Positions 280 to 62,887 of a stretch of DNA of 64,000 nt are shown one piece after another. The position numbers and the translations under genes were made by a program. The first letter of the stretch is position 1, and every line of letters begins with the position of its first letter. A model generated the notes under the pieces. It made no database searches. It saw nothing but the letters and a program-made list of their open reading frames with translations, and was not told the DNA's origin. Source of the stretch: Podarcis pityusensis (lineage: Eukaryota); assembly GCA_964106645.2 (NCBI GenBank), contig OZ067043.1; one strand, written 5' to 3'.

Positions 280-35675
<35,396 letters not shown>

Positions 35676-37203: not shown

Positions 37204-37475
37204 GTTGTTGTTGTTGTTTAGTCATTTAGTCGTGTCCGACTCTTCGTGACCCCATGGACCAGAGCACGCCAGGCACTCCTGTCTTCCACTACCTCCCGCA
37301 GTTTGGTCAAACTCATGCTGGTAGCTTCAAGAACGCTGTCCAACCATCTCGTCCTCTGTCGTCCCCTTCTCCTTGTGCCCTCCATCTTTCCCGACATCAG
37401 GGTCTTTTCCAGGGAGTCTTCTCTTCTCATGAGGTGGCCAAAGTATTGGAGCCTCAGCTTCACGATCTGTCCTTC
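37204..37475 (-). mobile_element. BovB (RTE) LINE 3' fragment
   Basis: KLRLQYFGHLMRREDSLEKTLM...HGVTKSRTRLND, (CAA)n tail, 11-bp TSD CAGTGTGATCT. Confidence 0.9.
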
Positions 37476-40400
37476 CAGTGTGATCTACTCAGAAGTAATT
37501 CCACAAGATTGACTCCCAAGTGTTTATAACTGCAGTCTAAGGGGACTTTAGCTCTGATCCAGCAGGGCTCTCCTTATGTTTTCTCCTGACTCTGGTACCT
37601 GATGATATCCTTTAGTTAAAGATGATGATTAAAAGCATTTTTAACCCAAAACAGGGCCCTAGAGCAGCTTACAAATAGTAATGATTTGTAACACAAACCC
37701 TGCCCTCTGGCTCACAATCTGAGAGACACAACACAAAAGAAAAAGAAACAAAAGAAAAAAAAAAGAGGGAGAAGGGGAAAAAGTAAGCTCAGATATTAGT
37801 CCTTGTAGGGACTGGCTAGGATGAAGAGATTTGGAGATGAAGGGCCAAATGTTCCTGCTGGTCTCTCAGCAGAGCTGATGAGAAGATTCTGCAGTCCCCA
37901 AATAATAAGAGGACATTCCCAAACCTCAATATTTTTTTTCATGCCTGATGTAGACATGCAACCCAACACATCTGAAGAGATTACCATCATGCATGGAAAT
38001 TACATGTTGGTCACATGTTAATTACTATATGGAACAAACTTTTGTAATGTGAGTTTCTGTGTTGCGAAAAGGGAATACTGGTGATCATCCCAAGTGTTGG
38101 TCTAAAGAACATAACAAGGAATGTAATGCATGCTATATGCTAAACATGTTTTGACAATAACAACTTCTTAATAAGACTAGGGTCAGGTGTGTATGTGACC
38201 AAATTAAGCAAACCCTTTCTTTTTTTGCCTGATAGATTAGCATGTTATAATGTACAAAATGTCTACTATAGGTTGCAAGTTCATTGAAACTGTTCTTGAA
38301 CTTGTAGAGCAGGATTTGATCTTTCTTTACAAGTAGTGGAAAGAGATTAGAATAGAGATTTTGGGGGCAGCAGCATTTTAGGGATGCTCTTGTGATGCCA
38401 AAACCCAATGAAATGTTAACAACTTGGACATAAATTGTCCTGACAGTCACAGCTTTGTATAATTAACCTTTATTGGCTTGCCAGAATCATGCCTGTCAGT
38501 TTAATGCCAATCAAATGCCGAGGACCAACATCCCTGACCTGTCATCTTGCTGTGAAATCTGATGTACTGGAAGACACCCAACTTTTCCCTCTTGGTGACA
38601 CACAAAAGCCAAATCTGCGCAAACCTTTTCTTGCAGCTTTGCCTCAAAGAGGGGACCAACCAGTAGATGTTTTCATGTGGAACCCCATGAGAGGCAGAAT
38701 AGGAGCCCAAAGGGAAGCAAGGATGCAACCCAGTGTGACAGTAGGAGTAGGAAACCTCTACAATGTGGGCCAAATGAAGCTCTCCAGTTCCTCATACCAT
38801 TTTCCTAAACAGACTTATTCCACACACTTCTGAGGTACTTTTGTCTGTTTTCCGTGAACTGCGATGGTGCTTCTTGCTTAACTGGGTTGAGAGAGATGGG
38901 TGGGAGCATAGAAAACTATGGCTTCTGCACAGCCATATGGAGCCCACGGTACGAAGATAAGAGTCACACTTGCTGTTCCACTTCCCTATGCCTCTGACCC
39001 TGCTCTACACTAGCATGCAACTCCTGGAAGGTTCCCTACAAGAGAATGCAGATCTTGTGCTGGAGAACACCCTCTACAACTGTTTGTGATGTTTCCCCAC
39101 CCATTGTATAGAGGGCTATTTTTCAAACAACAACAACACTCATTTAAATCACTGCTGTGGTCCACTTACCATTATGAGGTCTGAATAGATAACTATGATG
39201 TCTCTGCAGCTGTTGCCATTGGCTGCAAACTGCTTGTGATGTCACAAGGAGAGGAAGAGATGAAGACAAAGAGGGGGGCTGGGATCTATAGTTTGTTAAG
39301 AGTCCTTAGAGTTGTTAGGAGACCCTTATTCCCCTCACAGATTGATTGTCAAACCACTCTAAGAATTGTAGCTCTGTGCAGGGAATAAGGGTCCCCTAAC
39401 AACTCTCAACACCATTAAAGTGTCTAAGATTCTTTGTGGGAAGCCATGACTGTTAAAATGGTATAACGGTGCTTAAAAATGTATGATGTGGATTTGGTGT
39501 CTGAATTTTTGGAGAGATTCTAGCTGTGCTTGAAATGGCTTTTCTCCACTTGAGGGCACCATTGATCTAGTTAAATATGTTAAAGTGAGGCATGTCGCTG
39601 CTTCTGCTTTATGCAACTGAGCTTTAAGTGCTTTAACCCATAAATTTCCACTGACCTCAGTAGTTTGTAAAGAGTGATCACCCATTCAAGAATAAATAGT
39701 GCAATAAAAACCCACTAACAGCAGCAGGATTACATTCTTAAGTAAAATGCGCTTAAGATTTCAACATGCATTCTTGTGTCTGCGCAAATACCAAGCCTAC
39801 TATGATCTGAGCAATAAACAAATAACAATAATTTGCAATTGCAGATAACAAGAAGTATCTCCTGTGAAATTGTGTATCTTCTTAGAAAACAAAGGAGCAC
39901 ATTCTGCTTTAGAAGTTATACAGGTACAATATGTACTGCAAATTCTTCCATAATGCTATATGCACCCAGTGCCATCTATCGTGTGTGAACAGCAGGAAGT
40001 CAAGGAGCAGCACTGGATGAAGTTGTAGATGCATAGGGTGGGTGGGGAGGTAAACAGGATGTATATCAGATTTACCCTTCAAAATTTCAGTCTGCAAATG
40101 CACCCTAAGACTTGATGGTGCAAGAGGCTTTTGTTTTTGCAGCTGCAAATTAAAATGGCTTGTCTGGAATTTGTCTTTAGCCTTCGTTTCCGCAGGTATT
40201 TCCACAAAGGTCTTTGAACAGAGGCATGATTTAGCAGCCTTTTGTAAGTATTGGACAACCACTTCTTTCATCTCTCTTCACAGCTGCATGGAAGACACAT
40301 AGCTAAATCCAATTCACGGACACGACAGGCAACTGAGTGTTCGTTTGATGTCATATACAAGGGAATTTTACACAAATCTAATCTGTTTTGCCATGTTGCT

Positions 40401-49645: not shown

Positions 49646-50031
49646 GATAGGATGTTTTTAGGATGTTTTTACTGCTTATTATTTGCTGCCCTGGGCCTTT
49701 GGGAGGAAGGACAATATATGTATTTTAATAATAATAATGAAGAAGAAACTAACTAAAGGTTGCATTTCAGCTGGTTAAAGATCCTTTTATTAAAGCTCAG
49801 TGTGTTTTACAAGTCAAACTAATGCCTTCAGAAGTAAGAACTACTGAATTGTGCTTACTCCCAAGAAACTATGCATCCTAATAAACTAGGTATTTACACT
49901 ATGCATTGCTCTGGTCTTTCTGTGCGTATAACAACTGTAGATCACCAGAACTGACTCTCTTGGGGACATGGCAATCTGGGTTGTCCTGATCATATATTAG
50001 ACTGGAATTCGGTGTAGTGCTAAGTGGGGTA

Positions 50032-50273
50032 CAGTGGTACCTCGGGTTAAGTACTTAATTCGTTCCGGAGGTCCGTTCTCAACCTGAAACTATTCTTAAC
50101 CTGAAGCACCACTTTAGCTAATGGGGCTTCCTGCTGCTGCCGCGCCGCCGGAGCATGATTTCTGTTCTCATCCTGAAGCAAAGTTCTTAACCTGAAGCAA
50201 TATTTCTGGGTTAGCGGAGTCTGTAACCTGAAGCGTATGTAACCTGAAGCGTATGTAACCCGAGGTACCACTG
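50032..50273. mobile_element. Tc1/mariner MITE, family A (left unit of composite)
   Basis: TIRs, TA on both sides, 242 bp. Confidence 0.9.
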
Positions 50274-50295
50274 TACTTTAATAGATTTTCCATAG

Positions 50296-50474
50296 ATTTT
50301 TTAACATGTGATTGAATCCAACCCAGAAATAATGACAGTCTGGAAGTGCCTGGACAGTCTAATACACGGAGTATGAACTTGCATGAAACACTCAATTATT
50401 TGAGGGCAGCAGCCTTCTTTGAACTATGCTGGAGAAGCATCTAGCACAGATGAAGGTAGGGCCTTTATGCAGTA
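50296..50474. repeat. 179-bp inverted duplicate of 57765-57943
   Basis: Reverse-complement match with 5 mismatches by manual alignment. Confidence 0.92.
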
Positions 50475-50699
50475 CAGTGGTACCTCGGGTTAAGAACTTA
50501 ATTCGTTCCAGAGGTCTGTTCTTAACCTGAAGCACCACTTTAGCTAATGGAGCCTCCTGCTGCTGCCATGCCGCCGAAGCACGATTTCTGTTCTCATCCT
50601 GAAGCAAAGTTCTTAACCCGAGGTACTATTTCTGGGTTAGTGGAGTCTGTAACCTGAAGCGTCTGTAACCTGAAGCGTATGTAACCCAAGGCACCACTG
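50475..50699. mobile_element. Tc1/mariner MITE, family A (right unit of composite; 17-nt internal deletion)
   Basis: TIRs, TA on both sides. Confidence 0.9.
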
Positions 50700-51209
50700 T
50701 ATCTGGAAGCAGAATGAGTTCTGCCCGTGCAGCAGGACTTTTCCTCCCACTCCCCGCTCCTCCTTCCAACCCTCCGGAACAGATTTAGGGGGCAACTGGG
50801 GAAAGAAGGGAGGAAAGTCCCATTGCACAAGCGGATCTTAGTTGAATCCCAGCCCCTAAACTTGATCACTTATCACTTGCACTACTTGGTCCATTTCTAG
50901 CCTCATAGGTAGCAGCACGAGACACTTGGTTCGCATAGGCTTTGGGATAATTTTTTAAAATTAGGGCTTACACCTAAACAAAGAGCTGCAAAATGACGGC
51001 ACATGTGTTATGCTTGCTTTGGGAAGGCTGCTGTAAATAGCATTTTTCTGGGAGTGCTGAAGTCCGTGGCTATAATATATATGGCACTATTCACCACATG
51101 TGAAGTCCCCGCATACTGGTAGACACCAGAAATGCTCAGAGAATGTGGAGGCTGACTGTTGGGGGTAGCCAGTGTGTGGTGCCCTCCAGATTTGTTGAAC
51201 TCTAACCCC

Positions 51210-56095: not shown

Positions 56096-56640
56096 TACAC
56101 AGTTTTGCCTTTTGGGACAATGATGATCCCCAAAACACAAACCCATGTAAGTTGTGTGCTTACTGCACTCCAAATTCAAGATCCAGGAACTCTAGAGGAA
56201 GCCAGTACACAGAAGTATTTACATTCAGTGGACGAAAGCTTAAAATCATGACATAAATCTAAGACAGTGTACAGTATACATACAGCAATATCTCTGTAAA
56301 TCTCTCTTGCCAGTATGACATGCCAGTTTGGTCATGTGAATTGGCTACATATCTGCCTCTTTCATAAGGTTATATATATCTCTCTGCAGTCCTGCCCTAT
56401 TATGCAACCGTAGGTCAAGCTGAAATGGACTGGCTTCTAACTGGTCCTGTAGCTCAGCTTGTCTTCACTTTGCACAATAAATTCTCAAGGCTTCTAACTT
56501 AATGTTTATTCATTAATGTTTATTGAATAACACTCTATAACAATGACACTTTCCCCAAGGGGCATGATGTGAGTCACTCATATAAACATGCAAGTAATTA
56601 GGTTATTGTTGGTGTTTTAATTGTTCCTTATTTGGTTTTA

Positions 56641-57666
56641 CAGTGGTACCTTGGGTTACAGACGCTTCAGGTTACAGACACTTCAGGTTACAGACTCCAC
56701 TAACCCAGAAGTAGTACCTCGGGTTAAGAACTTTGCTTCAGGATGAGAACACAAATCGCGCAGTGGCGGCGCAGCGGCAGCAGGAGGCCCCATTAGCTAA
56801 AGTGGTACCTCAGGTTAAGAGTGTCTGGAGGCGGTTGGAGGATGGATGGCGGCTAACAGATTGAGGTTGAATCCTGACAAGACAGAAGTACTGTTTTTGG
56901 GGGACAGGAGGCGGGCAGGTGTGGAGGATTCCCTGGTCCTGAATGGGGTAACTGTGCCCCTGAAGGACCAGGTGCGCAGCCTGGGAGTCATTTTGGACTC
57001 ACAGCTGTCTATGGAGGCGCAGGTCAAATCTGTGTCCAGGGCAGCTGTTTACCAGCTCCATCTGGTACGTAGGCTGAGACCCTATCTGCCTGCGGACTGC
57101 CTCGCCAGAGTGGTGCATGCTCTGGTTATCTCCCACATGGACTATGCGCTCTACGTGGGACTACCTTTGAAGGTGACCCGGAAACTACAACTAATCCAGA
57201 ATGCGGCAGCTAGACTGGTGACTGGGAGCAGCTGCCGAGACCATATAACACCAGTCTTGAAAGACCTACATTGGCTCCCAGTACGTTTCCGAGTACCATT
57301 CAAAGTGTGGTGACCTTTAAAGCCCTAAACGGCCTCGGTCCAGTATATCTGAAGGAGCGTCTCCACCCCCATCATTCTACCCGGACACTGAGCTCCAGCA
57401 CCGAGGGCCTTCTGGAAGTTCCCTCACTGCGAGAAGCTAAGTGAACCAGGCAGAGGGCCTTCTCGGTAGTGGCGCCCTCCCTGTGGAATGCCCTCCCACC
57501 AGATGTCAAAGAGAACAACTACCAGACTTTTAGAAGACATCTGAAGGTGGCCCTGTTTAGGGAGGTTTTTAATGTTTGATGTAGTACAGTATTTTAATAT
57601 TTTTTTTGGGAAGCCGCCCAGAGTGGCTGGGGAAGCCCAGCCAGATGGGAGGGGTATAAATAATAA

Positions 57667-57704
<38 letters not shown>

Positions 57705-57764
57705 AGTTTCAGGTTAAGAACGGACCTCCAGAATGAATTAAGTTCTTAACCTGAGGTACCACTG
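56641..57764. mobile_element. Tc1/mariner MITE, family A, split by an L2-like LINE (MITE parts 56641-56820 and 57703-57764)
   Basis: TIRs and TA at both outer ends; consensus caggttaaga|acagtttcagg rejoined across the insert. Confidence 0.88.
56821..57702 (+). mobile_element. L2-like LINE 3' fragment (RT C-terminal region)
   Basis: WMAANRLRLNPDKTEVL...SLGVILDSQLSM...LQLIQNAAARLV...HITPVLKDLHWLP; (TTA)n tail. Confidence 0.88.
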
Positions 57765-57943
57765 TACTGCATAAAGGTCCTAACTTAGTCTGTGCTAGAT
57801 GCTTCTCCAGCATAGTTCAAAGAAGGCTGCTGCCCTCAAATAATTGAGTGTTTCATGCAAGTTCATACTCAGTGTATTAGACTGTCCAGGCACTTCCAGA
57901 CTGTCATTATTTCTGGGTTGGATTCAATCACATGTTAAAAAAT
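57765..57943. repeat. 179-bp inverted duplicate of 50296-50474
   Basis: Reverse-complement match. Confidence 0.92.
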
Positions 57944-62107: not shown

Positions 62108-62887
62108 TGTTGTTGTTGTTTAGTTGTTTAGTCGTGTCCGACTCTTCATGACCCCATGGACCAGAGCACTCCAGGCACTTCTGTCTTCCACTGCCTCCCG
62201 CAGTTTGGTCAAACTCATGCTGGTAGCTTCAAGAACAATGTCCAACCATCTCGTCCTCTGTCGTCCCCTTCTCCTTGTGCCCTCCATCTTTCCCAACATC
62301 AGGGTCTTTTCCAGGGAGTCTTCTCTTCTCATGAGGTGGCCAAAGTACTGGAGCCTCAGCTTCAGGATCTGTCCTTTCAGTGAGCACTCAGGGCTGATTT
62401 CCTTAAGAATGGATAGGTTTGATCTTCTTGCAGTCCATGGGATTCTCAAGAGTCTCCTCCAGCACCATAATTCAAAAGCATCAATTCTTCGGCGATCAGC
62501 CTTCTTTATGGTCCAGCTCTTACTTCCATACATCACCACTGGGAAAACCATAGCTTTAACTATACGGACCTTTGTTGGCAAGGTGATGTCTCTGCTTTTT
62601 AAGATGCTGTCTAGGTTTGTCATTGCTTTTCTCCCAAGAAGCAGGCGTCTTTTAATTTCGTGGCTGCTGTCACCAAGTGCAGCGATCATGGAGCCCAAGA
62701 AGGTAAAATCTCTCACTGCCTCCATTTCTTCCCCTTCTATTTGCCAGGAGGTGATGGGCCTAGTGGCCATGATCTTAGTTTTTTTTGATGCTGAGCTTCA
62801 GCCCATATTTTGCGCTCTCCTCTTTCACCCTCATTAAAAGGTTCTTTAATTCCTCCTTGCTTTCTGCCATCAAGGTTGTGTCATCTA
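62108..62887 (-). mobile_element. BovB (RTE) LINE 3' fragment with 216-aa RT C-terminal ORF
   Basis: DDTTLMAESKEELKNLL, frameshift at the poly-T near 62780, then EIKRRLLLGRKAM...IDAFELWCWRRLL...; (CAA)n tail. Confidence 0.92.

What the first reader, a model, noticed from the sequence alone, without database searches (positions are those of the whole stretch)
50032..50699. MITE-filler-MITE composite built from two other MITE loci: a templated-repair scar
Seen: two same-orientation family-A MITEs enclose 201 nt (50274-50474) made entirely of copied DNA. This is 23 nt from the flank of the 17406 MITE joined, through one shared A at 50296, to 179 nt from the flank of the 57764 MITE end. Each piece stays attached to the same MITE end as at its source. 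The left MITE is identical to the 17.4-kb copy only in the half next to the filler. The right MITE lacks one 17-nt internal repeat unit at about the point where the 57-kb copy is interrupted by a LINE, as mis-registered pairing would predict. The outer flanks look like halves of one older element (GACTGGAATTC at 50000 versus GAATCCCAGCC at 50844). Inference: broken ends at a MITE invaded two different nearby copies, copied past their termini and were end-joined, so MITEs acted as a local template network that shuffles unique flanking DNA. The unequal divergence (0 of about 138 versus 5 of 179) may indicate two separate events.
Basis: partly seen in the sequence, partly recalled or inferred. 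Interest (0 to 1): 0.7.

Follow-up and report, generated by a model that had tools for sequence, protein, structure and literature searches.

The report
Two-donor repair scar doubling a MITE
Two same-direction copies of a small transposon enclose 201 bases copied from beside two neighbouring copies, likely the scar of one broken copy whose two ends each repaired themselves on a different neighbour, which is a known kind of DNA repair in a slightly unusual form.

Summary
The 201-nt spacer is 23 nt from the 17.4-kb MITE flank joined at one shared A to 179 nt from the 57.8-kb flank. Public runs argue against misassembly. Organisms A and B carry the 179-nt piece at about double depth, starting exactly at 50296. 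Organism D has MITE ends at both borders and a single-copy spacer. Against 76 family copies, both MITEs are mosaics rather than whole copies of their donors. This favours a resident Tigger-type MITE that broke, primed on two inverted neighbours, over-ran their ends and was end-joined. The junction carries a 9-nt templated-join repeat (69 of 18,900 simulated joins). Closest known: two-donor repair-mediated duplications (PMC2671141). Here the donors were found by family homology, so two near-complete elements result. A 'network' is not supported: among 229 termini in 1.66 Mb only this locus shares flanks, and 0 of 6 other close pairs have copied spacers. Two separate events are not needed (p=0.07). 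The scan noted a related inverted repair scar in another genome, not this structure.

The parts
50030..50031 (+). TA target site, left copy
   Evidence: Organism C contigs of 212 nt = 96 nt ending here + 116 nt from 50702, read as the empty site (inferred).
50032..50273 (+). Left MITE, mosaic: outer part likely from the resident element, inner part copied from the 17.4-kb MITE; switch lies between 50078 and 50192
   Evidence: Inner part 0/117 differences from the donor, 0 of 76 family copies as close. Outer part 8/129, 11 of 76 as close. It lacks the donor's subfamily base at 50077 (7 of 76 copies) and shares the donor's rare base at 50200 (5 of 76).
50274..50296 (+). Filler piece 1: 23 nt (with TA), reverse complement of 17383-17405
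   Evidence: Identical.
50281..50300 (+). End-joining junction at 50296: one shared base, and a 9-nt direct repeat (50281-50289 and 50292-50300) whose second copy spans the join
   Evidence: 69 of 18,900 simulated joins of the same two flanks give a repeat of 9 nt or more.
50296..50474 (+). Filler piece 2: 179 nt (with TA), reverse complement of 57765-57943
   Evidence: 5 differences; two full copies in the genome; about double depth in organisms A and B, single in C and D.
50475..50699 (+). Right MITE, mosaic: start attached to the 57.8-kb flank, remainder not a copy of that donor; lacks one 17-nt unit near 50515-50531
   Evidence: Middle part 11/69 differences from the donor, 60 of 76 copies as close; lacks the donor's subfamily bases from 50531 on.
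50700..50701 (+). TA target site, right copy
17383..17649 (-). Donor 1: inverted MITE (17406-17647) and its outer flank, 32.6 kb to the left
57703..57943 (-). Donor 2: terminal piece of an inverted MITE and its outer flank, 7.3 kb to the right
56639..56820 (-). Remainder of the donor 2 MITE, on the other side of the insertion
56821..57702 (+). High-copy insertion with an (ATT)n tail that splits donor 2 at the second internal repeat unit; the LINE (L2-like) label is recalled, Pfam gave no match

Best explanation
The locus is two mosaic MITEs around 201 nt copied from the flanks of two inverted neighbours, and it likely arose when one resident Tigger-type MITE broke internally and each end was extended on a different neighbour before the ends were joined. 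One element became two with no second transposition. No function is implied.
For: Shown: both filler pieces stay attached to the same MITE end as at the source. Both elements are mosaics with donor-derived parts on the filler side. The composite sits between one pair of TA. Organisms A and B show the 179-nt piece as a 198-nt contig starting at 50296, depth 40.2 vs flanks 21-22 and 14.2 vs 7.5-9.8. In C and D the piece lies in 660- and 659-nt contigs that run on past 50296 at about single depth (53.5 vs 38-49; 8.5 vs 13-14). D has MITE sequence at both borders (contigs to 50055 and from 50679). The junction repeat meets the SD-MMEJ criterion of PMC2943611 (passages) and is rare in simulation. 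The 17-nt loss falls in the interval where the two switch zones overlap and is seen in 2 of 76 other copies. Two-template repair inside transposons is described in PMC2671141.
Against: The left switch point is loose (50078-50192). A single break before 50105 needs 5 later changes in 50128-50157 (4 at CpG) but none in the next 139 nt. The total of 8/267 also fits a whole copy of donor 1 by count alone. The outer third of the right MITE is closer to donor 2 than 75 of 76 copies (4/84, with two shared CpG decays), though 19 of 76 are as close once CpG columns are dropped. The first 43 columns of the right MITE differ from donor 2 at 4 CpG sites, so the copied tract inside the MITE is not delimited. 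Contigs cannot span a MITE, so D's single MITE is inferred, and it could be a later collapse of the composite. No listed contig spans 50296 itself. The junction-repeat test was chosen after seeing the repeat. Presence of donor 1 in relatives was not tested.
Confidence: 0.65

Rival explanations
1. One-ended serial template switching (FoSTeS/MMBIR type): one nascent strand left the resident MITE, copied donor 1 and 23 nt, jumped to a point 179 nt outside donor 2, copied back into it and re-entered the resident MITE at the repeat unit.
For: Gives the same product and allows the left switch to lie after 50157, which explains the sharp 8/129 vs 0/140 split (Fisher p=0.0025, cut chosen after the fact).
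Against: Needs a homology-free jump that happens to land beside a family copy in the right orientation. Left and right MITEs would then share a duplicated middle, yet they differ there at 7 sites and share no private variant.
Confidence: 0.18
2. Two successive one-sided repair events at the same MITE.
For: 0/139 vs 5/179 divergence.
Against: Fisher p=0.07. Organism C, with one copy, has the 50-kb state at two or more of the three clustered sites 50451, 50456 and 50461, so these are later changes in the donor. It needs two rare events at one place.
Confidence: 0.07
3. Composite insertion by reversed-ends transposition with re-replication, as for maize Ac/fAc: the inward-facing ends of the two donors were cut together and inserted at the TA between them.
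For: The geometry matches: the outer ends of the composite are the inward-facing end types of the two donors, the filler is their outer flanks, and there is one TA duplication (model in PMC4270019 section 6). Intact Tigger-like transposase frames with related ends exist in the genome. The outer third of the right MITE is close to donor 2.
Against: It predicts whole copies of each donor. The right MITE lacks donor 2's subfamily bases at 50531, 50533, 50577, 50578, 50581, 50629 and 50679, and the left MITE lacks donor 1's at 50077. D has MITE ends at this site without the duplicated filler.
Confidence: 0.05
4. Misassembly, or two independent MITE insertions around native DNA of which the 17.4- and 57.8-kb flanks are the copies.
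For: No listed contig spans the whole composite.
Against: Double depth and a branch at 50296 in two other organisms (both runs from one study). C has contiguous flanks without the insert and holds the 179-nt piece inside a longer single-copy contig.
Confidence: 0.03

Closest known systems
Chimeric repair-mediated duplications (Pace et al. 2009, PMC2671141; abstract, passages, sections 6 and 12 read; supplements not read)
   Same: Short germline capture of nearby DNA inside a transposon; two donors joined at a very short overlap (20 of 1,136 human cases); piece size near their mean of 162 bp.
   Different: Here the donors are flanks of same-family copies found by element homology, so two near-complete elements result. 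Their screen required two fragments under 95% of consensus with continuous coordinates and would likely miss this. Donors are 7 and 33 kb away; each of their chimeric cases had one donor within 5 kb. Their Table S1 may hold similar cases. No squamate was among their genomes.
Single-copy Pack-TIRs by gap filling (Tan et al. 2021, PMC8277862; passages)
   Same: TIR element, cis donors, internal break after insertion, element without the capture in an outgroup, single copy.
   Different: Pack-TIR filler splits one element into two halves; here each side is rebuilt to nearly full length with its own inner TIR and TA.
Ac/fAc composite insertions (Zhang et al. 2014, PMC4270019; abstract and section 6)
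   Same: Element - copied flank - join - copied flank - element, inside one target-site duplication.
   Different: Needs transposase, an empty target and whole donor copies; here the elements are mosaics and a relative has a MITE at the site.
SD-MMEJ junctions (Yu and McVey 2010, PMC2943611; passages)
   Same: Junction contained in one half of a direct repeat within 20 bp.
   Different: Describes only the final join; their 4-bp criterion is often met by chance (43-54%), whereas the 9-nt repeat here is not (0.37%).
TE-mediated rearrangements (PMC9675761; passages) and inverted-repeat fold-back repair (PMC6103520; abstract)
   Same: Homologous repeats at junctions; inverted repeats near a break steer repair.
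   Different: Those passages describe deletions, duplications, inversions and fold-backs, not a two-donor insertion that doubles the element.

Membership tests
Repair-mediated duplication, two-donor type | Insert of 50 bp or more with one parental copy elsewhere | tested here: met
   179-nt piece has two full places; the 23-nt piece has its parent at 17383-17405.
Repair-mediated duplication, two-donor type | Two donors joined at short complementarity, no target-site duplication or poly-A of its own | tested here: met
   One shared base plus templated repeat.
Repair-mediated duplication, two-donor type | Uninterrupted element at the orthologous site in a relative | tested here: inconclusive
   D has both MITE ends and single-copy filler, but contigs cannot span the element.
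Repair-mediated duplication, two-donor type | Host element split into two fragments with continuous consensus coordinates (screen definition) | tested here: not met
   Both sides are near-complete elements, 242 and 225 nt: works like it, outside the operational definition.
Pack-TIR (gap filling) | Non-TE DNA between the two halves of one TIR element with one TSD | tested here: inconclusive
   One outer TA pair is present, but there are four TIRs and two inner TA.
Pack-TIR (multicopy) | Composite has moved as a unit | tested here: not met
   No third copy of the filler.
Reversed-ends composite insertion | Outer ends are the inward-facing ends of two nearby elements; filler is their outer flanks | tested here: met
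Reversed-ends composite insertion | Each element is a whole copy of its donor | tested here: not met
Reversed-ends composite insertion | Target empty immediately before the event | tested here: inconclusive
   C empty, D with MITE ends; no rooted tree.
pogo/Tigger-type MITE | TIRs, TA duplication, high copy number, ends related to a DDE_1 transposase element | tested here: met
   TIR stem; TA; 79 copies of 200 nt or more in 1.664 Mb. Eleven DDE_1 loci inspected have an end matching 14 of the first 15 bases (TA included) and further subterminal bases; one frame has DDE_1, HTH_Tnp_Tc5 and CENP-B_N. That this family mobilised the MITE is untested.
SD-MMEJ junction | Polymerase theta dependence | not testable with these tools
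   Sequence signature only.

The most novel reading that the evidence does not exclude
Break repair primed on inverted family neighbours is a recurrent, transposase-free way for MITEs to double in place and wrap host DNA. It builds ready-made composite Tigger elements (outer TIRs, one TA site) that published interrupted-element screens cannot see and that the genome's intact Tigger-like transposases could later move.
Probability: 0.15. Interest if true: 0.6.

Novelty: new variant of a known kind. Interest (0 to 1): 0.3.

Why it matters
It is a clean germline record of two-donor homology-primed repair, with an apparent series of states in living relatives (empty site, single MITE, composite). 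It shows that a close MITE pair need not be two insertions, and it points to a blind spot in screens for repair-mediated duplications and Pack-TIRs. The present evidence makes it a rare single event with no sign of function, so the wider importance is modest unless a genome-wide scan finds many more.

Tried and rejected
Network generality: 293 terminal-motif hits in 1.664 Mb, 64 dropped as internal repeats or short flanks, 229 kept; only this locus shares flanks. The first unfiltered run was swamped by internal repeats and discarded. That test sees only donors inside the sample. A genome-wide exact pattern gave 58 MITE-end pairs with 170-230-nt spacers; 15 loci were returned, 10 in the same orientation, and 6 of these were searched: five single-copy spacers and one old repeat with 75% or less identity elsewhere. 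Pieces as short as 23 nt would be missed. 'Halves of one older element' for the outer flanks: not shown. Gene conversion between the filler copies in A and B, suggested by the single collapsed contig: not claimed, since contigs drop variants. A transposase cut at the internal TIR-like repeat near 50092-50116: considered and set aside, because a cut at its tip would lie beyond the right switch zone; the fold is dominated by the terminal stem. LINE age: nearest genome copies are 96-97% identical, somewhat more diverged than each filler copy (2-3 of 179) but with overlapping error. Pfam gave nothing for the LINE-like frame. A direct look at the 50296 join and at donor 1 in further runs was not obtained, so these stay open. 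Literature searches listed no paper on a two-complete-MITE repair composite; the library is open-access only and I saw most hits only as listings. PMC10499017 was seen as outline and abstract only and is not relied on.

Full report
Observation. A self-comparison of the window and exact alignments confirm the anatomy. Two same-orientation MITEs at 50032-50273 and 50475-50699 enclose 50274-50474. The first 23 nt continue an inverted match to the MITE at 17406-17647 (8 differences in 267 nt, none in the last 139). The last 179 nt are an inverted match to 57765-57943 (5 differences) and continue into the terminal piece of the MITE there. The pieces share only the A at 50296. The 179-nt piece has two full places in the genome and the 17.4-kb flank is single-copy. 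Among 26,106 pairs of 229 termini in 1.664 Mb around the window, only these two pairs share outer flanks.

The element. It has terminal inverted repeats and TA duplications, with 79 copies of 200 nt or more in the sample. The genome holds many open 575-576 aa frames with DDE_1; the one scanned also has HTH_Tnp_Tc5 and CENP-B_N. The ends of eleven such loci resemble the MITE end, so I call it pogo/Tigger-type (label partly recalled).

Relatives. One search listed 19 runs holding part of the stretch; four were laid (A and B and D from one study, C from another). In A and B the 179-nt piece is a 198-nt contig that begins at 50296 at about twice flank depth, as a duplication branching there predicts. 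In C it lies in a 660-nt contig that runs on. Two 212-nt contigs in C have 116 nt on 50702-50817; the other 96 nt fit 49936-50031 by length, and their summed depth (48.9) appears at 49964. In D the piece lies in a 659-nt low-depth contig, while contigs enter MITE sequence at both borders, which suggests one MITE without the duplicated filler. Left-flank differences from the window are 3/354 (A, B), 11/344 (D) and 10/204 (C), so the event likely postdates the split from D and predates that of A and B. The tree is unrooted and contigs cannot span a MITE.

Mosaicism. I aligned 79 of 109 family segments (those of 200 nt or more) plus the two pieces of donor 2 and ranked donors against the 76 other copies. 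The inner part of the left MITE is 0/117 from donor 1 with no other copy as close, and shares its rare base at 50200. The outer part is 8/129, with 11 of 76 as close, and lacks donor 1's subfamily base at 50077. The middle of the right MITE is 11/69 from donor 2, with 60 of 76 as close, and lacks seven of its subfamily bases. Against this reading, the outer third of the right MITE is 4/84 from donor 2 with only 1 of 76 as close (19 of 76 without CpG columns), and the total count for the left MITE would fit a whole copy. On balance neither element is a whole donor copy. This is the main argument against a reversed-ends composite insertion (PMC4270019, section 6), whose geometry otherwise matches.

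Mechanism. The switch zones (left after 50077; right before the base equivalent to 50105) overlap at the internal repeat where the right MITE lost 17 nt, a loss seen in 2 of 76 other copies. Donor 2 is split by an insertion at the start of the second repeat unit, so a right end could reach the terminal piece only through the first unit. This needs the insertion to be older, which is weakly supported. Both donors are inverted and each lies on the side of the end that used it, as intrachromosomal fold-back priming would give (inference; compare PMC6103520, abstract). The join lies inside the second copy of a 9-nt direct repeat whose first copy is 11 nt upstream, the loop-out signature of PMC2943611 (passages). 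69 of 18,900 simulated joins reach that length, though the test was chosen after seeing it. Two-ended repair (0.65) and serial template switching (0.18) give the same product and are not separable here. Two events are not required: p=0.07, and C shows that at least two of the clustered differences are later changes in the donor.

Generality. Besides the 229-terminus test, 58 close MITE-end pairs were found genome-wide. Of 15 loci returned, 10 were same-orientation, and 0 of the 6 searched had a near-identical second copy of the spacer. The 'template network' is therefore one event on present evidence. One of the 15 loci shows a different MITE-linked duplication (172 nt direct).

Comparison. 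PMC2671141 (abstract, passages, sections 6 and 12) describes both ends of a break using different templates and reports 20 two-donor cases among 1,136 human captures inside transposons. PMC8277862 (passages) describes single-copy Pack-TIRs by gap filling with a cis bias. PMC9675761 (passages) covers repeat-mediated rearrangements. PMC3014272 (passages) reports inter-element recombination and captured DNA in anole transposons. The present case works like a two-donor repair-mediated duplication but fails that screen's definition, because homology to family copies rebuilt two near-complete elements. Six searches listed no description of this exact form; supplements, such as Table S1 of PMC2671141, were not read and may hold one. 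Verdict: real, well explained, a new variant of a known kind, interest 0.3.

Noticed in passing
L229:1116-1689 (G000:C2, near 11.197 Mb): A family MITE is flanked by a 172-nt direct duplication at 94.8% identity, like a very long target-site duplication.
   Followed up: partly
G000:C12:52532043-52532288: The same 25-nt spacer appears on both sides of a MITE in what looks like a chain of three elements.
   Followed up: no
window 17374-17381 and 50306-50313: An 8-nt match exists between donor 1's flank 2 nt beyond the copied tract and the filler 10 nt past the join; it was not used in the final junction.
   Followed up: no
window 50023-50029 and 17649-17655: The same 7-mer (AGTGGGG) abuts the TA at the left border of the composite and at the inner border of donor 1; probably chance.
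   Followed up: no
window 57729-57788: Donor 2 and its flank carry a cluster of apparently private changes within 60 nt.
   Followed up: partly
L198-L222: Many open 575-576 aa Tigger-like transposase frames with identical ends in the loci inspected suggest a very young family in this genome.
   Followed up: partly
L223-L237: Among 13 same-family close pairs, 10 are direct and 3 inverted; small sample.
   Followed up: no
window 37206-37480 and 62108-62382: A 275-nt direct match at 95.6% identity, not examined.
   Followed up: no
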